The notes under the pieces were generated by a model. The model was not told the origin of the DNA. It was given only the letters and a program-made list of their open reading frames with translations, and did no database searches. Source: Eledone cirrhosa (Eukaryota). From it: a DNA stretch of 64,000 nucleotides. This document shows, one piece after another, positions 24,107 to 59,689 of the stretch. Numbering within the stretch: the stretch's first letter is position 1; the number at the start of each line of letters is the position of its first letter. The DNA lies in the NCBI GenBank assembly GCA_964016885.1, contig OZ024746.1:7750001-7814000 (forward strand), in the 5' to 3' direction. The translations under genes and the position numbers were made by a program.

Positions 24107-25795
24107 CATCATCATCATCATCAACGTTTAACGTCCGTGTTCCACGCTTGCATGGGTTTGGACGGGGGTATTCCCACTTGAGGCAAGAGTGATTGTCTTG
24201 CTCGCATAGGACTATCTGGCAGGTTTTCTACAGTTGGATGCCCTTCCTAACACCAACCACATTTACAGTGTGGGTCTGGGAGGTTTTTACCGTGTTGCCT
24301 ACACGGCCACATTACAGCGTGGACTGTGTGTTTTTTTGTCGTGACACCTACACGATCTCATTTGTTTCGGCCTGGATGGCGCGGCACCAACATAACTTTA
24401 CATAGAACGGGGTGGTGTGGATGGGGTGGGGGTGGTGGGACGGGGTGTATTTTGTTAGAGATGCCTACTGGCTGTAGTAGGTTTTACTATGTATTTAGGT
24501 AAGGCGGGTCTTCTCTGTTACTGAGTACCGCCAAAGGTCTCGGTCCAGTGACATTGTCTTGGAGAGGTGTAAGTGTGTGAGGTCGGAGTTTATCAGCTCG
24601 TCCCAGGTTTTTCTAGGTCTGCCTATTCCGTGGCTACCGTCCATCTTTATTGCCCTGCACTTTGTTATACAGCTATCGACTTTCATGCGCATCACGTGTC
24701 CATACCAACGTAGCCTTCTCTCGAGTAAACAACATCTGATCCCTCTTATTTCTAATTTTTTCCTTAGTTCGTTTATGCTTTGCCGTTCACGTATATTACT
24801 GTTACACATCCAGCCGAGCATGCAAGCTTCGTTCCTCTCTAGTCTGCGTATATCCTCTGCACACAATGCCCAGGTCTCACTGCCATGCAACATTGCTGTT
24901 CGTATGCAGGCATCATACAACCTGCCTTTCATTTTTAGGGAGAACCCTTTAGCAGCTAATAGTGGTATAAGCTCTCTGAACTTTTTCCAACCAGTTCTGA
25001 CTCTAGCTACTGTACTTTCAGAGCACCCTCCCCCACTGCTGATTTTATCGCCCAGGTAACGGAAGCTGTCCACTATTTCTATAGAACCCTCTGCGCAATT
25101 GAAAGAGCTAGTATTTTGTGGGCACTTGCTGCTACTTATTGCACCAGAGCACCGGCCACATGTAAAATCTATGTTCTTAGTTAGCTTACCTGTGATCCCA
25201 CTACATCTTTTATGCACCCATACTTTGCATTTGGGACATAAAATGGAGTTTCTACCTACGCCTTTCCTCCACACTGAGCATGGCCATTTCCCAGAAGGGA
25301 CCGCCGCCTTATTTTCTTTCCTACAAACTAGAACTTTAGTCTTAGCCAGGTTAATTTTAAGTCCTTTTGATTCTAGGCCGTGCTTCCATGTTTGGAATTT
25401 CTTCTCTAGCTCGGCCATTGATTCAGCTATGAGTGTCAGGTCGTCTGCGTATAGGAGTTCCCATGGGCAGCCGGTCTTGAACTCCTCTGTTATAGCCTGA
25501 AGGGCAATAATAAATAGTAGGGGGCTGAGAACAGAGCCCTGATGGACGCCAACTTTTACGCTAAACTCTTCACTATATTCGTTGTTAATTCTAACCTTGC
25601 TGACTGTTTCTTTATACATGGCTTGTATAGCTCTCACAAGCCATTCGTCAACCCCTAGTTTTCTAAGAGCCCACCCGATAATGGAGCGGGGGACTCTGTC
25701 GAAGGCTTTCTCCAAGTCGACAAAAGCTAAGTAGAGGGGTTTACCTTTAGCTAGGTACTTCTCCTGTAGTTGTTGTACAATGAAAAGAGCGTCTG
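24107..25795 (-). mobile_element. 5'-truncated RTE-clade LINE (RT C-terminal ORF 24495-25715), (GAT)n tail, TSD TGAAAAT
   Basis: RT motifs AFVDLEKAFD, GVHQGSVLSPLLF, LLYADD, FRYLG; RRLRWYGHVMR and GRPRKTW C-terminus. TGAAAAT at 24100-24106 and 25796-25802. Confidence 0.95.
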
Positions 25796-28039
25796 TGAAA
25801 ATGTTAATTTGTTCTGTAATTAAATTTCATGTTTTGTCCAAGGAAAAGCTATGATAGAATATCAAAATTTTACAATCATATTGTAAATACCAAACTCCTT
25901 GCAAGTCATGTTGTTGTTTAGCTATAGGTCAACCCTGATTGAACAGTAATATGGGTATAAAATGTGGTTGGTTGAATGGACTAAGTACAACCTACAGATC
26001 CTTCTAACCAGTTATACCATATCTACACTGAACTATACTGTATAATCCAACATACAGTGATAAATATTATAGGGTTCAGTGTTAGTCTGTAAATGTTACA
26101 CTTCCTTCACCATCCTGTCTAAGGAGGAATCTTCAGCCTGCAAGAAATTTAAGCCCAAATCTTTCTTAAATATGACCTCACTGTCTTAAAAATGGAGTGC
26201 TAAATAGGTTTAACTTTCATTACAATATTTCTCATGAAAGATAACTGTCCATGGTCTTCAAATAACTTTGAAAATAATAAAAAAAAATGTGGATGTATTC
26301 AGTAGTAATATAATTTTCTCATTAAAAAATCTGGTGTTTGGAACATAAAGGTTCTTATATAGAATTATGATAGAAAGCTTTTAGATAAATATAAACACTT
26401 TTAAAATAAACAGCTTGGTTTGGTATGAAAAGGTTTAATTCCTGTGTTGAGTCACTTCTATTTGCTGGCTTAGCTTGTTTCAGCAATCCAACTGTATCAA
26501 TAGTTAATGAAAGGACAAGCTTTGCCAGGCTAACTTCATTTCAGACTATATATTTTCACTTCAAATATATTTTTATAAATTTCTCCTTTTACCAAGATTT
26601 GATCCCAGTATTGGAAACTACCAATATATTTTGTCACTAGTAAATTTCTCATTTCTCTTCCTTTGATTCTAAACTAGATGAAACGTCCCTGGTTCTTCAA
26701 TACAAAACTGCATGTTTGCAAGTATTTGTTTATCTAAAAACCTTCAGTTATAATTTTGTTCCAAACACTAGCTTAATAACAAGAAAATTATAATAAATCC
26801 CTTCACATTTTTTTTTTTTTCATTAGAAATATGGTAATGTCATGCTTAATTCGATTTTGTTAGATTAAGTGGAGTCTAGATAGTATTCTCTCAGCCAGCT
26901 TACTGTATCCATATTTTAGCCAAAAGACCAATACTTCATCCAGTTACCATAACTAAGTTGGCAGAGAAGATAAAGCCTCAGACTTTAATACCTTGCAATA
27001 ATTAGTTGTCACCTATACAGAGTCCAAATTCAATCAGTGTTGACTTTACCTATCATCTTTCTCAAAGATAGGTGTATGACAGGAGTAAACCATTATTTGG
27101 TATGTAACGTGGCAGAGATGTGTGTATCCAGTAAAGAATAGATACAAATATATATTTACATGTTCTAAGTGTTGACTAAAATGGTTAGTATCAGGTAGAG
27201 CATCCAGCTGTAAAACATCGTTTCCTAAAGGATCCTATTAGTAGTAATGTTCGCAAGGAAATTGGCCATAAAACGCCTGTAGTATGTAATGTGGTAGATT
27301 CAATTAACTTTACTCCATCTTGTCTGTCTTCTGCCGGTAGTAGAAATCCCTATTTTTATTTAACTCTTTAGAGAAATGACTTGCAAAGTTGAAAACTGTC
27401 TTCATCTTCCGAAATAAATCATTCCAAATAATCCTGATCAAACTGACCAAAGCATCTTTTAAAACCTGCTTTATCTCATGTTCTATTTTAAGCAATGGTG
27501 TGCAGCTCATTCAATTACATAGTGATCCCTTCATTGGTATATTTTTAAATTACTTGCCAGCTCCTACTTAAATTTTTCTTCTATAAGTGTCCAGCTGCAG
27601 AAAATGTATTGATCTCAAAATTATCAATAATGAAGAAAATTGCATGTATGTTTTCTATGAAAACAAAGCAGTTTAACTTGCAATTCTTTTCATGAACTGG
27701 TATCAACTTCAATAACAGCCATATGCTTTGAAAATTATCTCAAAATCAATTTCCAATTTGTAGGTAATTAGTATTTTTGAGCAACTTGCGTGTAAGGAAA
27801 TATTGAAGACTATAGGATCTGGTTTAAAGGTTGGAAGAGAGAATACATTTTATAAAGCAACGATTGCTTTATAAAACACCAGTAAAAAAAAAAAAAAAAA
27901 AAATATTCCATGTGTATCCTTGTATGTTGTAAAGTGACAATGGTTTGATGTCAGGAAAGGTATCTGGATCTTAAACATTCTCAAAATATCCTCATGTAGA
28001 AGTAGACGGGGAAAAATAAAACCCCTTAATTGTATGTGC

Positions 28040-31365: not shown

Positions 31366-32007
31366 TTAACTAAATACACAAGTGGCCAAGTGTTTCATTG
31401 AATCTCCGGGAATGGGTAAGGAACTGATAAACTGATCCTTACAAGAGGAAAGTAGGGCAGTCCCTTTAGACTCTGACTGAGATGTTGATGGTGAGGAGAT
31501 GGTGAGATTGGTAGAGGTGTTATTGTTGTTGGTGTTATTGTTTGGTCTCGGTGTGATGATGCTACTGTTGGAGATGGAGGAAGAGAAGTTAGTAGTGTAG
31601 GTGTTGTTAGTGTTGTTGCTGCTGGGCGAACTACAAGATTCTAAGCTGCTGGAACTTGTGCCCCGGTAAAGTATTCCTATGCTGCCGTTTTCACCGATTC
31701 TGTAGGAAACGTCCAGTGGATCTATCCACACAGTCAATTCACGAGGGAAGAACGTGAAGATTTCTTCCTCTGTAAATCCGCACCTCTCGCCAGCTACTTT
31801 AATCAGAGGATCCATTTTATGATTCATCCGGAGACATCGGTAGCCACTGCCTTTGTTCGGTTTCTCCGGGAACCAATGGTCTCTATAGTGGCTTAGAAGC
31901 AGAGATTGTAGATAACATTTGAACAAATCCGTCTTCTCCGAACATATTGAGTGGGTTCTGAGAATACTGGAAAGAAATTCGGTAGCGCTTGCTACTTCGT
32001 TCATCAT
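31366..32007 (-). CDS. BTG1: BTG/Tob (APRO) family anti-proliferative protein, BTG1/BTG2-like, 213 aa, intronless CDS
   Basis: Box A HYRDHWFPEKPNKGSGYRCLRMN, Box B FPRELTVWIDPLDVSYRIGE, Box C-like NGSIGILY. Ser/Asn/Thr low-complexity linker and a C-terminal SCKDQF resembling BTG1 SCKEEL. Uninterrupted ORF from ATG to stop. The symbol is family-level (BTG1/2-like), not proven 1:1 orthology. Confidence 0.95.
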   Translation of the reverse strand: MMNEVASATEFLSSILRTHSICSEKTDLFKCYLQSLLLSHYRDHWFPEKPNKGSGYRCLRMNHKMDPLIKVAGERCGFTEEEIFTFFPRELTVWIDPLDVSYRIGENGSIGILYRGTSSSSLESCSSPSSNNTNNTYTTNFSSSISNSSIITPRPNNNTNNNNTSTNLTISSPSTSQSESKGTALLSSCKDQFISSLPIPGDSMKHLATCVFS

Positions 32008-32504
32008 CTTGCTGACAAAAACATTCGAGATGGAACTTCAAGTCAAAAGGAGGGATTAGCTCAACGCAGAAGTAATTAAAAAAAAATAAATATAAATTAA
32101 TACTGCTTTTCTTTTTCTTGTTGTTTCGGTTCAGTTGAATGTTGAATGAAATATTAACTTTCTGGCTTTTTCTTTATATATATAAATATATAAACAGTTA
32201 AGTTTACGTACGCTTCCGAAGAAAAGTGAGAAAAAACGTAGATTTCCTTGCGTGAGGATAACAGACAAATAAGGAGGAAAAAGAATCAATTTTGTTCTCT
32301 ATCCAACAACAGTCTGTTTTTTGTAGTTATAAGTTTGGTGGGTTTCTGGTTTTTGTTTTTCTTAGTTTTCTTTGAGAGCTGTAAAAAGTGGTTCTTTGTT
32401 TGGTAGCCAGTCGGCAGGAAGAGAGAGAACTGCAGAAGCGTAATGGACGTATAGATCAACAACAGGAACACAACTAACGCCAAACGACAGAGGAATAGGA
32501 CGAG

Positions 32505-35623: not shown

Positions 35624-35815
35624 TATATATATATATATATATACATACTTTATAAATAACAATCAAAGAGTGTTTAAAACATTTAAATGTTTTAAACACT
35701 CTTTGATTGTTATTTATAAAGTATTTCGGCTCTGTAATATACTTATTTTACATTGAGCTATTCTCATACTTGTAATTGGATATTTAATATTACCCACATT
35801 ATATATATATATATA

Positions 35816-35973
35816 TAACGAAGGAAGTGTGGTAAGGAACCAGATGGACCATAACGCACCAGAGTACTCAATACTTAGGGTAGTAGAGTGGGTAATAGGA
35901 AAATGTTTAACCCCGACGGCAGAGCTCAAACCGTTTCTGGACAGAAATAGCCGTCGGGGTTAACATTTTCCTA
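35816..35973. mobile_element. Family H element with partial fold-back, in (TA)n
   Basis: taggaaaatgtttaaccccgacggc...gccgtcggggttaacattttccta. Confidence 0.75.
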
Positions 35974-43647: not shown

Positions 43648-45070
43648 GATATTAGCACAATTAATTAGAGAAAGGGTCAAACTAGATGAGATGCAGTTTG
43701 GTTTTGTGCCTGGGAAAAGTACAACAGATGCCCTCTTCTTGGTGAGACAATTACAAGAGAGGTTCTTAGAGAAGAATAAGCCACTATACTTAGCTTTTGT
43801 TGACTTAGAGAAGGCCTTTGATAGGGTACCCCTATCTGTCATCTGGTGGTCCCTAAGGAAACTAGGTGTTGAGGAATGGCTTGTGAGGACAGAGCAAACT
43901 TTGTACTGCTGTCAGTAAAGTCAGGGTAGGAATGGAGTTTAGTGAGGAATTCCAAATACAAGTAGGAGTACATCAAGGTTCGGTCCTCAGCCCGCTCTTG
44001 TTCATTATAGTCCTCCAAGCCATAACAGAGGAGTTTAAGACTGGCTGTCCATGGGAACTTCTCTATGCTGACGATCTGGTTCTTATAGTAGAATCAGTAG
44101 AGGAGCTAGAGAATAAATTCTGGCTATGGAAACAGCAGTTGGAAGCAAGAGGACTGAGAGTGAACCTAGCTAAGACAAAAGTGTTGATGAGTAGAAAAGA
44201 GGACAAAACTCTGATTCCGTCAGGGAAATGGCCATGTTCGATATGCAGAAAAGGAACTGGCATAAATTCTATAAAATGCACACAATGCAGATCCTGGGTA
44301 CACAAGAGATGTAGTGGAATAGCAGGCAAACTAACAGGTAGGGAGAAATACGTATGCAGTAGATGTACAGGGAAATTAGACAGTAGAAGTCACATTGATA
44401 GACACGTTTTTCAAATGCAGGCAGGTGCTATAGAAGTGGTGGATAGCTTCCGGTACCTAGGAATTAAGTTTTGCATGGGAGGGGGGTGTTCCGAGGCCAT
44501 AGTATCTAGAATAAGGACGGGTTGGAAGAAGTTTAGGGAGCTGTTTCCTCTGCTGACGAAGGAGGGTTTCTCCCTGCGTACGAAAGGCCGGTTATATGAT
44601 GCCTGTGTGAGGAGCGCGATGCTGCATGGTAGTGAGACATGGGCAGCAACTGCAGAGGATATGCGACGGCTGGAGAGAAATGAGGCAAGCATGCTCCGTT
44701 GGATGTGCAGTGTAAATGTGCATGAACGACCCAGCATGGGTGCGTTGAGAGAGAAACTGTGTCTGAGAGGGATAGAATGTAGTGTACAGGAGAGGAGACT
44801 GAGGTGGTATGGACATGTGATGCGCATGGAGGGTGACCGATGGGTAAAGAAGTGTCAGGAAATGCCAGTTGAAGGAAGACGTGGTAGAGGTAGACCACGA
44901 AAAGCATGGGCGGAGGTGGTGAGAACAGACCTCAGATCGATGAAGCTCACGGTGGAGATGACGAAGGACCGTGACAAGTGGAGAGAGCTGTGGTGAATAA
45001 GACCTGTCCCACCCTTGCAAGCAGGGAAAAGCGGACGTAAAATGATGATGATGATGATGATGATGATGAT
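43648..45070 (+). mobile_element. 5'-truncated RTE-clade LINE (second subfamily), frameshift near 43900-43930, (GAT)n tail
   Basis: QFGFVPGKSTTDALF, AFVDLEKAFD, GVHQGSVLSPLLF, LLYADD, RRLRWYGHV across ORFs 43469-43918 and 43932-44996. Confidence 0.95.
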
Positions 45071-51811: not shown

Positions 51812-53184
51812 TCACAGGTCAGTTTGATTATTCAGCTCTTCAGCTCTCTGCTGGGCTAAACAACAATGAATTATTTTATTTAAAGAAGAAATAGAACATG
51901 GATAAAATCACATTCACACAAAATAGGTCCTATTAATATTTATCTTTGCAAGCCAGGTAGAATTTGAAAAATATATTTCAATAATGTGTCATGTTGTCAG
52001 TCAAGGTTGCATTGTAAAATGGCTGCCAATAAATTCAATATTAGCCACTGTGACTATTAAACTGTAGCTAGAAAACTGGAAACTTGTCAACTACTAAAGT
52101 AATTCACTGGATTAGCCTGAAAGAGCTTATAACTGAAACCTTGCAGAGATACAACCACAGAATTTTAAGCTGATGATATTAATAACTTATACAGAAGATT
52201 ACAATGACTAATATAAGATAAGGGAGATAGTTTTTAACTCATTATATATATATAATCTTCTTCTATACCCAGTTATCCGTAGGGGCAAAGTCCTCAAGCA
52301 CACCTTTCAATGGGTCCTATCAGAAGCAATCGTCTTCAATTGATCCGGCTGGATTCCCAAGCAAGACCACCCAAGTTCAGGAATATTATCCAAACTTCCA
52401 TGTACCAACCTGTTCTCTTCCTATCCAAACTCTCCATTTCCTGACAAAGGACTTCCATCTGAAATGTACAATTGTCTTCCACTTCCTCTAAGTATGAACC
52501 TAATAAAACTTTGTATTTTTGCATCCCTGTGTTTGTTTTGTTTTATTTGTTCATATATATATACATCATCATCATCATCATCATCATAATTTTTAAAAAA
52601 AACTAGTGATGAAAAAAGGTAACTTGGAAAATAAAATTGACTCTGGTGGGGATTTAAACTCAGAGGGAACAAATGCCACTATATAATATGGATGTATGGC
52701 CCCATAACTCCTAAGAGAGTCATAGGGACGCCTTGTTGATATACAGCATTTCTAGGGAACTTTTAACTTGGCAGAGCACAATTCCTCTCCAGGTCTGAAT
52801 ACAGTAAATTTCTTCCAGTGAAGGATAGAAAGAGTGATAGAATGGAAGTGAGAAAGAGGTATCGAAGAAGAATCGACCCCAGTAGTAGACTGGTACTTTT
52901 TAAAGAGTTAACCAATAAAACACATTTCCTTTGTGTTTTTTTTTAACCCTTTAATATTCTTCTATTATTTTTACTGGCTTCAGCCCTTAGACACCGGCCA
53001 TAGGCCATGCCTATGTACTACTGCTTTAAAGGGATTTAGTCAATCACATCAACTACAATACTTGATCCTTTTTTCAAGTCTGAAACTTACTTTATCGATC
53101 TCTTTCTGTCGAACCTCTAAGTTACAGAACATAAACACAGATACAGATATAAACATAAACATGCCACCCACCATATATTATATA

Positions 53185-53469
53185 TAATGAAGGAAGTGTG
53201 GTCAGGAACCAGGTGGACCATAACGCATCAGACTACTTGATACTTTAGATAGTAGAGTGGGTAATAGGAAAAGGTTCAGGACCCCGACGGCAGAGCTCAA
53301 GCTGTTTTGAAGGCTATTTCTGGACTGAGTCCAAAAATAGCCGTCGAAACGGCTTGAGCTCTGCCGTTGGGGTCCTGAACCTTTTCCTATTACCCACTCT
53401 ACTATCTAAAGTATTGAGTAGTCTGATGCGTTATGGTCCACCTGGTTCCTTACCACACTTCCTTCATTA
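53185..53469. mobile_element. Fold-back element (~140-bp arms) of the HHR-bearing family H, in (TA)n
   Basis: taatgaaggaagtgtgg...ccacacttccttcatta, symmetric about ggactgagtcc (~53327). Same family as 8017-8072, 35816-35973, 53722-53870 and 59215-59406. Confidence 0.85.
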
Positions 53470-53494
53470 TATATATATATATATATACCCACTC

Positions 53495-53830: not shown

Positions 53831-54243
53831 ACAGTCCATATGGACTGTACCCCTTGATAACTTAAGCTAGAGTAGTTTTATTTTCTTTGTATCTTTTTGT
53901 TGTTTGTTCTTTGGTCTCATTTGGTTATTCTTGAAGAAGAATTTCTGTCTCAAGTTGTTACAAAGATAAAGATAAAAATTTCAAAACTGATAATTATTTT
54001 TAGACAGAAGTCAATTGAAGTATCAGTTTACTTATATCCTTCTTATATTTTTATAGATTCTATCTCTCTTCTATATTGTGTATATTTATTTTAAGAGAAT
54101 TTACATATTTTCCCAGTGGAAAAGAAGAAAATATCTAAAATGTAAAAAAACCAGCCTCAAACTAACAATTACATTACTAGCTAAACTTGGTAACCGAAGA
54201 ATATATATTGGGTGTGTGTGTGTATATGATGATGATGATGATA

Positions 54244-54311
<68 letters not shown>

Positions 54312-54368
54312 GGAAAAAATGAAACGAAATTTCATTTCCCACTCTTAGTACGGCTGTTACTTACTTAA

Positions 54369-54912
54369 ATATAAGTATGTACACATACATACATATATGT
54401 ATACAGACGTACAGTAGTATGTATATATATATACATACATGCACATATATATATATGTACGTATGGATTCACCGAACATTTATTATAATGCTCGGTGTGT
54501 TTGTAAACAAACATCCCGTATTAAGCCATAGTGTCTAACAACCATCGTTGCTCGTTTGTTCAACACTCGTTTGATTAACCCACTCGATATGCAAATTAGG
54601 CTACTCAGCCGTTAATATGCATAAGGTAAGTATATACGTTCAACAATCTGGCAGGAAGGTATACGTTGCTGACGATAGCTAATAAGCTTGAAACTAGTAC
54701 AGCGTCCCTTTGTCAGTGTTGAACAAACGAGCAACGATGGTTGCTAGACACTACGGCTTAATACGGGATGTTTGTTTACAAACACACCGAGCATTATAAT
54801 AAATGTTCGGTGAATCCATACGTATATATATATATATGTGTGCATGTATGTATATATATATACATACTACTGTACGTCTGTATACATATATGTATGTACG
54901 TGTACATACTTA

Positions 54913-54914
<2 letters not shown>
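54369..54914. mobile_element. Fold-back element: ~198-bp inverted arms around a 147-bp loop carrying a hammerhead
   Basis: Arm 54369-54567 is the reverse complement of 54715-54914 with few mismatches. Confidence 0.85.
54663..54705 (+). ncRNA. Minimal type I hammerhead ribozyme (Penelope-like pLTR type)
   Basis: acgttg-CTGACGA-t-agct(aata)agct-t-GAAA-ctag-TA-cagcgt: 6-bp stem I with one G.U pair, canonical core, stem II, palindromic ACTAGT stem III, GUA cleavage triplet. Confidence 0.85.
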
Positions 54915-54944
<30 letters not shown>

Positions 54945-54964
54945 AGTATGTACGTGTACATACT

Positions 54965-55008
<44 letters not shown>

Positions 55009-55237
55009 CTAACAATTACATTATTAGCTAAACTTGGTAACTGAAGAATATATGTATAAACTTAGTAAAACTTTTAAGTCAGACATTTCTTTTTTAAATG
55101 CATCTATATATATATATGTGTGTGTGTGTGCGTGCGTGTGTGTTATTTCTGTTTGTCTTTTGCATACGTACATATATGTATATATATATATATATATATT
55201 ATATGTCTGTCTCTTTACACACACAAACATATATACA

Positions 55238-56870: not shown

Positions 56871-59121
56871 CTTTAGAATATTGTATTGTATGTAACATAC
56901 AAACTTTTATTCTCTACCAAATTTGATTAAATAATTATATACAAGCTGGAAATGTCTAAACCATTTGGAAGAGAAAATTATTTGACAGCTAAGAAATAAC
57001 GACAACAACAACAACAAAAAGATTTTTACAAATATCATTAACTTTAAAATATTCCTTTATTTAAGAAGGAATTCATATATTGAATTACAGTTTTAAAATA
57101 AAACTAACAAACAAAAGCGAATCCTATGTAATTAACCCTTTTTTCCATTGTTTTCTTAGACAACCTCTAATTATTATTATTTCTCCTGACAAGAACAATG
57201 ACCCACAAAAAGACCAATAGTAATTATTTATTCGGTTGTTTCTAGAAGGATAAAAATATGTAAAGGAAAATAAATATATAAAATGACTCCTAACAGATGA
57301 CATAATTTCGATATTAACTAGACTATTCTGCGACTCATTTCCTTAGTAAATAGTTAATGATAGTGGGTTAAAGTTAATTAGTATTGTACATACAGCTCGT
57401 TTAGCTTAGTTTTATTTCGCTTACAGGACAACATTGGAGTACAACTGTTCTTTTTTTGGCTTTATGTTGTGCAACATAAACAAGAAAGTCTGCTTTTATT
57501 ACAGATCAAAAATACAGCTCAAAATGTGTCTCTAATGGTGGTTTAACATGCTAGAAATAGCGGTCAAATCTCCCTCAGATCACACCTTACCATCTTAGGT
57601 AAAAACGGACAGTATTGTTCTACGTCTATATGTATAATACTATGGCTGAATTTAAAAAGTGGGGAATTATCACGTCTGGAAGACTTTTAATGATAAAATT
57701 GACTTAAATGGGGGATCTCTGAATTTAAAACAACATAAGGCACTATATTTATATTACTTTCGAACTCTGAAGCAAGATTTTTAACGCCACCACCATCACC
57801 AACTAACTCCTCACTTCCTATCTTTCTATCTACCCGTTTCTGTTTCATGATTATATATTCTTTGGGTTCTTGTTGAAAAAACAAAGGAGACAGACAATGT
57901 TTACATCAATCAGTTCGCCTGAGGAAGGAAGTTGAAAGCTTTAACAATAGCAGTTGCTTGACAAGTACGTGTCAGCGACTCTGCTACTTATGGCTGTAGG
58001 CAACGATGACAGTAGTAACAAGAGAAAGCAGGAGTTCTGAACTAAAGACGATGGTTATGATAATGGTAATTGTGATGATGGTGGTGGTGATAAATGTCAG
58101 TGGAGGGAGCGGGTGCGAGTCAGCTGTGCAGGCTAGGCTGGGTCACGTGTTGGAGGAAAGGAAGACAGAAGCAGATGGGTGATGTCAGCAACAAGACGAA
58201 AATAACAAACTGAGAGAGAACAGACTGTTTACATACGCACACGCCTTCCCCTTCTACTTTTAACATGGTTTGTTTGTGTTTAGATGTGTGTGTGTAAATT
58301 ATCTAGTGATGGGGCGGGGTCGTCATGTTTATATGTCAGTTACTCGACAAGGTCACGATCAGCAAAAAAAATCTAGGTCGTCCCTGTTCATAAACTATAA
58401 CAGCCCCTTGAAAACACTGTTTACCTTTTTTTAGGGAGAAGGGAAGGCGTGTCTAACCAGAAAACCTATATTTAAATATAAACAGTGTGGACAGGGTATA
58501 ACCTGTTTAGGTTTTAGGTATCGGCTGTTGTTTTGGTTATATAGTCACTTAGGGCCTAGCCACAATTAAGAGAAAAAAACTGAACAATCTCTTATGTTAA
58601 AACAATATTTTACTTTCCTTTTAAATTATGATCCTTGAAAATATAGTTTTAAAAGGAATTTAGTAATATTTAATGTAATTTGTTCATTGTTAGATAAATG
58701 ATTTTCATATAATATACAGTATTGTTTCGAAGTCCCTAATATGATATTTGTTTTACATCTTTATTGAAAGAAAATTCTGGAATGTGCTAGCTATTATAAA
58801 TTCGATATTTTACTTCTGGCGTGACTCAGTATGTATATATAAATATGTGTGTATATAATCGCCCGCCCCCAACCTCGGAGTATTGTGTTATGGTTAGTTT
58901 TCGTGAACATCTTATTGAATATAGTTAAACATGGAATTAAGTCGTAAATAAACTAACTTCAAATTAAAGACTCCCCCCCCCCCCCCCCCCCCAAAAAAAA
59001 ATATATATATATCAGATTGTTTGTCATAAACAAATTATATATATATATATATATATATATGACTGCCAATATTGGAATTGAATAATCAAAACCGTAGCGG
59101 TATGTCACATATCAAAACATA

Positions 59122-59180
59122 TTTTGTCTGATGAAAACGTACTTAAACACCATAGTACCTTTGAAATATGTATAATAAAA
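59122..59180 (+). ncRNA. Decayed hammerhead-like motif
   Basis: CTGATGA-aaac-gtact(taaacaccat)agtac-cttt-GAAA-tatg-TA. Core and stem II are good; stem I pairs poorly. Confidence 0.5.
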
Positions 59181-59214
59181 TATATATTTTGATTATGAGA
59201 ATATTTTTCATTTG

Positions 59215-59406
59215 TAACGGAGGAAGCGTGGTAAGGAATCAGGTGGACCATGATGCACCAGAGTACTCGACACTATATAGGAAAAGAGTCAGAACCCTGA
59301 CGGCTGGGGCCCTGACTCTTTTCCTATTACCCACTCTACTACCCTAAGTGTCGAGTACTCTGGTGCGTCATGGTCCACCTGGTTCCTTACCACGCTTCCT
59401 TCGTTA
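59215..59406. mobile_element. Fold-back element, family H
   Basis: taacggaggaagcgtggtaagga...ccttaccacgcttccttcgtta inverted arms with an internal hairpin. Confidence 0.8.
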
Positions 59407-59689
59407 TATATATATATATTTTTTTTTTTTAAATATATATATATATATATATATATATTTAATACAATAACAGAGATAGTTTAAAGCTAAACTCTGACTG
59501 GTAACCATCTCACTCAACAAACATTAGGTTATATTAAAATATAAACCCAATTTAAGTGTTTGGGGTGCTAACAATATGTATAATGTGGAAAAACCAGTTG
59601 TATTATTTTATGAGATATAATTAAAGTTAAAGTATATCTCTCTTTCCATATATCTTTCTCTATATATATATATTTTTAAAAAAATATAT

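What the first reader, a model, noticed from the sequence alone, without database searches (positions are those of the whole stretch)
54369..54914. Well-formed hammerhead displayed in the loop of a ~200-bp fold-back, with octamer, splice donor and polyA signal
The 147-bp non-palindromic loop (54568-54714) holds ATGCAAAT (54589-54596), AG|GTAAGT (donor GT 54626-54627) and a canonical-core HHR (54663-54705; predicted cut after A54699). AATAAA follows at 54798-54803 in the right arm. This order resembles a PLE pseudo-LTR with an inverted copy of its own 3' part. If transcribed, it would form a long dsRNA stem with a self-cleaving loop. The ACTAGT stem III predicts activity as a dimer. The U.U pair at the base of stem II is non-canonical.
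Basis: partly seen in the sequence, partly recalled or inferred. Interest (0 to 1): 0.75.

Follow-up and report, generated by a model that had tools for sequence, protein, structure and literature searches.

The report
Hammerhead retrozyme inserted in Penelope fashion
This hairpin is one of many thousands of copies of a small non-coding repeat carrying a predicted self-cutting RNA; such copies nearly always land as two back-to-back pieces ending at two different fixed points, which suggests they are likely pasted by the enzyme of Penelope-type jumping genes.

Summary
All coordinates are correct, but the locus is not special. It is one copy of a dispersed, ORF-less, 424-nt tandem-unit repeat with a type I hammerhead, i.e. 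a non-LTR retrozyme. About 26,000 hammerhead matches were counted genome-wide. Stem I covaries (U·G, G·U, A-U) and the U·U pair is the family norm. The fold-back is the known head-to-head Penelope-like (PLE) insertion into (TA)n, and the hammerhead is in the loop only through chance 5' truncation. The splice donor and AATAAA are lost in sister subfamilies; the octamer is kept.

The two arms use one site each in 72 of 74 fold-backs, and likewise in 10 of 11 and 10 of 10 in two relatives. Ends do not match the ribozyme cut. This ties a true tandem retrozyme to PLE-type two-site priming (inferred).

No autonomous partner was found, and expression and cleavage are untested. The scan had noted the same fold-back anatomy for PLE stumps in other genomes.

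The parts
54306..54567 (-). Inverted, 5'-truncated arm: unit positions r163-r424, ending at the long (L) 3' site in (TA)n
   Evidence: (L001 1347-1608)
54306..54368 (-). One-sided tail between the short (S) and long (L) end sites; 59 nt in the reference unit, plus a 4-nt duplication here
54568..54572 (.). 5-nt filler at the head-to-head junction
54573..54915 (+). Direct, 5'-truncated arm: unit positions r21 to about r365, ending at the S site in (TA)n
54589..54596 (+). Octamer ATGCAAAT, kept in units A, B and D; lies in a predicted hairpin; promoter role inferred only
54624..54631 (+). Splice-donor-like AGGTAAGT; not conserved, likely incidental
54648..54716 (+). Type I hammerhead with extended, bulged stem I, U·U at the base of stem II and palindromic ACUAGU stem III; core 54663-54705; predicted cut after 54699
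54798..54803 (+). AATAAA; not conserved in units B and D, likely incidental
54275..54305 (.). Left (TA)n target flank
54916..55007 (.). Right (TA)n flank holding a small extra copy of the S-end sequence

Best explanation
The locus is one copy of an ORF-less, 424-nt tandem-unit repeat carrying a predicted type I hammerhead (a non-LTR retrozyme), laid down as two 5'-truncated pieces joined head to head in a (TA)n tract, likely by a borrowed Penelope-like RT/GIY-YIG protein.

Shown: the unit, tandem arrays, copy number, covariation, the two fixed 3' ends (S about r365-368, L r424), their one-each use in fold-backs, TA flanks, random 5' ends, junction microhomology or filler, and a common source for both arms.

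Inferred: the protein nicks both strands of the (TA)n target. Each 3'-OH primes reverse transcription inside an uncut multimeric or circular unit RNA, one at S and one at L, in a coupled reaction. Both cDNAs stop early and are joined. The hammerhead, probably working as a dimer, would process multimeric transcripts but does not set the ends of insertions. This copy has one hammerhead and no full cut-to-cut monomer, so it is probably a dead end.
For: Copy number: 1,601 and 682 first-look candidates; 2,953 exact L/(TA) and 1,464 exact S/(TA) junctions with controls at 0.

Unit: head-to-tail 424-nt units, at least 13 in L219; GC 37% and longest ATG ORF 60 aa in a 7-unit array; the cut-to-cut monomer folds at z -9.4.

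Stem I: among the first 100 non-U variants, 71 G·U, 26 A-U and 3 unpaired (my count). On a hand-picked alignment of 18 rows (16 distinct), 95.7% of cells are paired against 31-47% for slid controls.

Ends: 96 fold-backs in 177 loci; 72 L/S, 1 L/L, 1 S/S, and 22 with another or cut-off end, set aside (binomial p 3e-19 against 0.5). Subfamily B: 10 of 11 (my count). Distant family D: 10 of 10 (my count). An inverted arm adjoins 41 of 83 L-anchored insertions. TA flank on both sides in 51 of 72, one side in 17, none in 4. Junction overlap 58, blunt 7, insert 31 of 96. Arms of one locus share 22.8% of derived variants against 6.2% for permuted pairs (maximum 8.7% in 200 permutations).

Machinery: RT plus GIY-YIG ORFs of up to 938 aa exist in the genome. 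In vitro, an anole PLE cuts and extends both strands at AT-rich DNA and starts at two internal RNA sites that bound the tail, without needing hammerhead cleavage (PMC11167929 main text).
Against: No autonomous PLE sharing sequence with the unit was found: 8 of 288 family loci (overlaps included) hold PLE protein fragments, none contiguous upstream of a unit, and local alignment to 38 GIY-YIG loci scored no better than shuffles. Only 150 of 10,596 GIY-YIG candidates were scored. The tail (56-75 nt) is longer than the published 30-40 bp. The in vitro paper saw no difference in start site between strands, which alone would not give strict L/S pairing. Mirror-position units are no more alike than other units of the same insertion (3.8% against 3.8%), so priming versus DNA-level resolution is undecided. 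Cleavage and expression were not tested; 8 of 9 Xenopus retrozyme dimers did not cut in vitro. Some long arrays grew locally after insertion (perfect dimer alternation in L214 and L230). Part of the 177-locus sample was chosen for likeness to this fold-back.
Confidence: 0.8

Rival explanations
1. DNA-level resolution: one cDNA folds back by self-priming or template switch, and the endonuclease cuts the stem's two strands 56-59 nt apart before insertion. The two ends would be nick sites, not priming sites.
For: Explains strict L/S pairing and the common source of both arms without further assumptions. 8 of 96 junctions are near-symmetric. EN-mediated resolution and self-priming are proposed in PMC8557442 and PMC3846280 (passages).
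Against: 88 of 96 junctions are asymmetric, with overlap or filler. Mirror units are not closer than non-mirror units (a weak test). In vitro the tail ends are RT start sites.
Confidence: 0.2
2. These are just truncated ends (pLTR stumps) of an autonomous Penelope-like element, and the tandem arrays are local satellite-like expansions, not a self-propagating retrozyme.
For: Same anatomy as PLE stumps in the literature and in earlier scan notes on other genomes. Only 13 of 83 L-anchored insertions hold two tandem hammerheads. Some arrays expanded locally.
Against: Arms run through the r424-to-r1 junction into further identical units at dispersed loci. No ORF is attached in 288 loci. No shared upstream body appears among 42 single-arm 5' flanks. 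The supported loose ends in DNA contigs are (TA)n or subfamily variants (255 rows not shown).
Confidence: 0.1
3. The locus is a functional or selected transcript: an octamer-driven, spliced, polyadenylated RNA forming a long dsRNA with a self-cleaving loop.
For: If transcribed, the 610-nt insert folds into a long stem with hammerhead stem I intact (-362 kcal/mol). The octamer is conserved in the family.
Against: The donor and AATAAA are not conserved. No acceptor lies at the candidate site (AG in 9 of 229 units). Loop content varies at random among fold-backs. This copy is 95-97% like the reference unit, as other copies are.
Confidence: 0.04
4. The fold-back is an assembly or amplification chimera.
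For: Inverted repeats are a known artefact of long-read or amplified libraries (recalled).
Against: The arms differ by 5 substitutions and one indel in 204 columns. They are asymmetric, follow a fixed L/S rule at 72 loci and share family end sites.
Confidence: 0.02

Closest known systems
Metazoan non-LTR retrozymes (Cervera and de la Pena 2020, PMC7229834, passages seen; Li, Clavereau and Pollet 2026, bioRxiv 10.64898/2026.07.22.740005, parts 1-3 of 5 read)
   Same: Non-coding, low-GC tandem units of 150-450 bp, each with a type I hammerhead; highly self-paired monomer; co-occurs with PLEs. The U·U base of helix II and weak palindromic helix III resemble axolotl HHR_Amex2 and Amex1.
   Different: The parts I read link retrozymes to PLEs by co-occurrence and pLTR phylogeny and leave the mechanism open. 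Here the insertions themselves show the tail, head-to-head inversion, (TA)n targeting and coupled ends. Circular RNA and cleavage were not tested here.
Complex insertions of EN+ Penelope-like elements (Craig et al. 2021, PMC8557442; Arkhipova et al. 2013, PMC3846280; passages seen)
   Same: Partial tandems, an adjacent inverted 5'-truncated copy, a tail often at one end only, and (TA)n bias.
   Different: No ORF; tail of 56-75 nt rather than 30-40; the one-sided tail is near-obligate (72 of 74) rather than optional.
Anole Poseidon PAc in vitro mechanism (Frangieh et al. 2024, PMC11167929, parts 1-2 of 4 read)
   Same: Two internal start sites bounding a tail, both target strands extended, AT-rich target, hammerhead cleavage not defining insertion ends.
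   Different: PAc sites lie in the ORF start and showed no strand preference. Here they lie 218 and 277 nt past the predicted cut of a non-coding unit and are used one per arm.
Newt satellite 2 (hammerhead satellite with an snRNA-type promoter; Coats et al. 1994, seen only as a citing passage and title in PMC2220036; the paper is not held)
   Same: Tandem hammerhead repeat with a candidate internal promoter. That an octamer is part of that promoter is recalled, not seen.
   Different: No promoter activity or proximal sequence element was tested here; different animal group and sequence.

Membership tests
Non-LTR retrozyme | Tandem units of about 150-450 bp, each with a type I hammerhead | tested here: met
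   424-nt units, arrays of 2 to at least 13; this locus itself holds only one hammerhead
Non-LTR retrozyme | Non-coding, low GC | tested here: met
   GC 37%, longest ATG ORF 60 aa in seven units
Non-LTR retrozyme | Highly self-paired monomer | tested here: met
   z -9.4 for unit A, -9.2 for unit D
Non-LTR retrozyme | Expressed as linear and circular RNA | not testable with these tools
   no RNA holder listed
Type I hammerhead ribozyme | Core CUGANGA / GAAA / UH with three stems | tested here: met
   core letters 97-100% conserved except N7; stems
Type I hammerhead ribozyme | Covariation in stems | tested here: met
   stem I U·G, G·U, A-U; family D replaces stem II with a fully paired GAUG/CAUC; few independent events
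Type I hammerhead ribozyme | Purine-pyrimidine pair closing stem II | tested here: not met
   U·U in units A and B; published variant in axolotl; G-C in family D
Type I hammerhead ribozyme | Self-cleavage | not testable with these tools
   5' ends of copies do not pile up at the cut (3 of 83 in r148-170, p 0.83)
EN+ PLE-type insertion | Head-to-head inverted 5'-truncated copy | tested here: met
   41 of 83 L-anchored insertions
EN+ PLE-type insertion | Tail at one end | tested here: met
   72 of 74; 56-59 nt, longer than published
EN+ PLE-type insertion | Microsatellite or AT-rich target | tested here: met
   TA flank on both sides in 51 of 72, one side in 17
EN+ PLE-type insertion | Target-site duplication | tested here: inconclusive
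   hidden by (TA)n; a non-repetitive flank duplication in 1 of 70, this locus
Autonomous PLE (pLTR of) | Attached RT plus GIY-YIG ORF | tested here: not met
   none contiguous in 288 loci; no similarity to 38 GIY-YIG loci; the search was not exhaustive
PLE pLTR with 5'-UTR intron | Conserved donor with a downstream acceptor | tested here: not met

The most novel reading that the evidence does not exclude
Animal retrozymes are mobilised by a dimeric Penelope-like protein that primes both target strands in one coupled step at two dedicated internal sites of the same RNA, possibly the circle, and these families carry their own octamer-based internal promoter. This genome's roughly 26,000 copies would be a direct, countable record of that mechanism and a ready minimal substrate for testing it.
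Probability: 0.35. Interest if true: 0.62.

Novelty: new member of a known kind. Interest (0 to 1): 0.38.

Why it matters
The locus itself is ordinary. The family matters modestly. How non-LTR retrozymes are mobilised is stated as open in the 2026 preprint, and the steps after priming in PLE insertion are unvalidated in the 2024 in vitro paper. A short non-coding unit with two mapped ends, used one per arm in three related families, gives a defined substrate and a sharp prediction (coupled S/L use) that independent priming does not make. I did not find this shown for a retrozyme in nine full-text searches. The library lacks most subscription papers, and I read no supplements.

Tried and rejected
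Rfam scan: only microsatellite-driven miRNA and similar matches, no hammerhead.

RNA evidence: no RNA holder listed. Contig runs X1, X2 and X4-X6 were laid. They show the same variants but cannot show expression or editing. The low-depth matches in organisms B and C were not used as evidence.

Hammerhead cut as the 5' boundary: an apparent cluster in the first, biased sample did not hold in the end-anchored sample (3 of 83 in r148-170; 4 of 83 in r145-152, p 0.07).

L1-type twin priming on one linear RNA: L-arm 5' ends do not pile up near the S site.

Mirror-arm identity test: uninformative (3.8% against 3.8%, p 0.57, 46 loci).

Splice acceptor at r8-9: the majority is GG, not AG.

General long target-site duplication: 1 of 70, within control range.

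Partner search: the PLE ORF in L261 lies about 2.7 kb from a subfamily-B array with unrelated DNA between; negative.

Octamer as a general pLTR feature: the hammerhead after the L254 PLE ORF has none within 200 nt. Among the 14 motifs listed, only unit B and family E carry one.

The host taxon was not determined.

Full report
Observation. Every motif is at the stated place. The arms align over 204 columns at 96.6% around a 147-nt spacer. Rfam finds no hammerhead, and the 43-nt motif alone has an unremarkable folding z-score of -0.49. The case for a ribozyme therefore rests on comparison, not on this copy.

It is a repeat. The window lies in a 3.0-Gb genome (G000:C6). The loop plus inner arms has 1,601 first-look candidates and the loop alone 682. 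Neighbouring matches are spaced 420-424 bp apart. Locus L014 shows the unit, a 424-nt head-to-tail monomer. I number it r1-r424 starting just after its far 3' end: octamer r37, donor r72-79, core C3 r117, predicted cut after r147, AATAAA r246. The unit is 37% GC, and a seven-unit array has no ATG ORF over 60 aa. The cut-to-cut monomer folds at -147.6 kcal/mol, z -9.4. Two patterns that are nearly disjoint give 10,580 and 15,502 hammerhead matches (controls 58 and 0). An octamer-plus-core pattern gives 26,129 (control 3). The last count includes a few other families.

The hammerhead. In about 300 family-A units the core letters are 97-100% conserved, except the free position N7. The third pair of stem I is U·G here. 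Among the first 100 listed non-U variants it is G·U in 71, A-U in 26 and unpaired in 3 (my count). On 18 hand-picked rows (16 distinct), 95.7% of cells pair against 31-47% for slid controls, with two-sided changes at two pairs. These are few independent events. Stem I extends beyond a small internal loop. U·U at the base of stem II is the norm in units A and B and is published for axolotl HHR_Amex2. A distant relative, family D (465-nt unit), has a different, fully paired stem II and the same ACUAGU stem III. That stem III is one firm pair capped by a palindrome, the kind that works better as a dimer in axolotl. Cleavage was not tested.

The donor's GT is GA in 87 of 272 family-A units and in 154 of 157 units of the G·U subfamily. 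AATAAA is AATAAG in 103 of those 157. Units B and D have neither signal. No acceptor is conserved at the one candidate site. The octamer is different. It is exact in 155 of 157 G·U units, 183 of 258 U·G units and 39 of 41 D units (overlapping loci counted more than once). TATGCAAATT is one of the few exact blocks shared by A and D. Three further TA-ending sequences with a hammerhead carry it 60-90 nt upstream, but they were found with a pattern that demanded it. Without that selection, only unit B and family E had it among 14 listed motifs. It also sits in a predicted hairpin in A, B and D, so RNA structure could explain its retention. A promoter role, as for newt satellite 2, is an inference. 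I saw only a citing passage for that work.

Insertion anatomy. In 46 distinct loci the outer 3' ends fell at r424 (30) and at r368 by BLAST (30), mostly into (TA)n. The true short junction is about r365, blurred by TA microhomology, so the tail is 56-59 nt. Exact L and S junction patterns occur 2,953 and 1,464 times. In a sample anchored only on the L end (90 loci; 4 unparsed and 3 duplicate or cut-off rows dropped), 41 of 83 had an adjoining inverted arm. Over 177 loci from all samples there were 96 fold-backs: 72 with one L and one S arm, 1 L/L, 1 S/S, and 22 with another or cut-off end. Subfamily B gave 10 of 11 among 23 loci. Family D gave 10 of 10 among 17 of the 25 loci fetched, overlaps left out. 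Both are my counts. The window copy follows the rule: L arm 54306-54567 on the minus strand, S arm 54573-54915 on the plus strand. Junctions show overlap in 58, a blunt join in 7 and filler in 31 of 96; 8 are near-symmetric. The 5' ends are spread over the unit with no pile-up at the ribozyme cut. The hammerhead lies in one arm only in 38 of 96 fold-backs, so its display in this loop is chance. Both arms of an insertion share derived variants far above permuted pairs (22.8% against 6.2%), so they come from one source. Mirror units are no closer than other units. Some long arrays show perfect dimer alternation, which points to later local expansion.

Machinery. The genome has many GIY-YIG matches (10,596 candidates, 150 scored) and RT plus GIY-YIG ORFs. 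Some are followed by a hammerhead with the same U·U pair and a palindromic stem III, and end in TA repeats. None could be tied to this unit.

How it likely works. Published PLE insertions have partial tandems, an adjacent inverted truncated copy, a 30-40 bp tail often at one end, and (TA)n bias (passages of PMC8557442 and PMC3846280). In vitro an anole PLE nicks and extends both strands of AT-rich DNA, starts at two internal RNA sites that bound the tail, and does not need hammerhead cleavage (PMC11167929). The simplest reading is that a PLE protein acts in trans on this unit's uncut multimeric or circular RNA. It primes one strand at S and the other at L, and the truncated cDNAs are joined head to head. 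The coupling is inferred from the 72-of-74 pattern. Staggered cutting of a fold-back DNA intermediate explains it equally well and is the main rival. Circle versus linear multimer cannot be told apart here.

Comparison and novelty. It is a member of the non-LTR retrozymes on the sequence criteria tested (expression untested). It works like an EN+ PLE insertion but is not shown to be the pLTR of an autonomous element. The parts of the retrozyme papers I read (PMC7229834 passages; the 2026 preprint, parts 1-3 of 5) propose PLE mobilisation without showing insertion anatomy. Nine searches found no paper doing so. Supplements were not read, and those of the preprint are closed; they could already show tails. 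Earlier scan notes describe the same fold-back anatomy for PLE stumps in other genomes; a sequence look-up for this family found nothing. Verdict: an ordinary copy of a new family of a known kind, with a useful mechanistic regularity. Interest 0.38.

Noticed in passing
window 53179-53475: A second fold-back with 148-nt arms, 95% complementary and 1 nt apart, from another repeat family with relatives at 59203-59419 and 35800-35937.
   Followed up: no
window 59120-59215: A separate roughly 96-nt repeat with a hammerhead-like motif (59128-59174); 2,680 first-look candidates, several as close inverted pairs.
   Followed up: partly
window 54161-54206 and 55008-55053: A 46-bp direct repeat (95.7%) brackets the insertion and its microsatellites; only 1 of 70 fold-backs has one, so it is locus-specific and unexplained.
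   Followed up: partly
window 31369-32037, minus strand: BTG-family ORF (Pfam PF07742, E 1e-36), about 22 kb from the finding.
   Followed up: partly
window 24498-25826 (-) and 43887-44993 (+): Two related reverse-transcriptase fragments with weak PHD-finger matches, LINE-like.
   Followed up: partly
L364:813-1277 and relatives L351-L375: Family D: a distant 465-nt tandem relative with a G-C-closed stem II, a C·A mismatch next to the cut, the same octamer and the same two-end rule.
   Followed up: yes
L382, L394, L395, L260, L263 (family E); L400; L405: Other TA-ending sequences with a type I hammerhead and an upstream octamer; family E has several octamer-like copies in a row, and L263 shows a fold-back with a shorter one-sided tail by eye.
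   Followed up: partly
L-anchored sample L061-L090, L121-L180: 15 of 83 L-arm 5' ends fall in r2-34 (about 6.5 expected; p 0.002 for a bin chosen afterwards); could be a stall, a block at the upstream tail or a transcript start. Unexplained.
   Followed up: partly
L214, L230: Arrays of two alternating unit variants that differ at 13 sites, with alternate units mostly identical.
   Followed up: partly
L251, L252, L253, L254: Long RT ORFs (636-1096 aa), two with a GIY-YIG match over the cut-off and a cysteine-rich linker before it; candidate donors of the transposition protein.
   Followed up: partly
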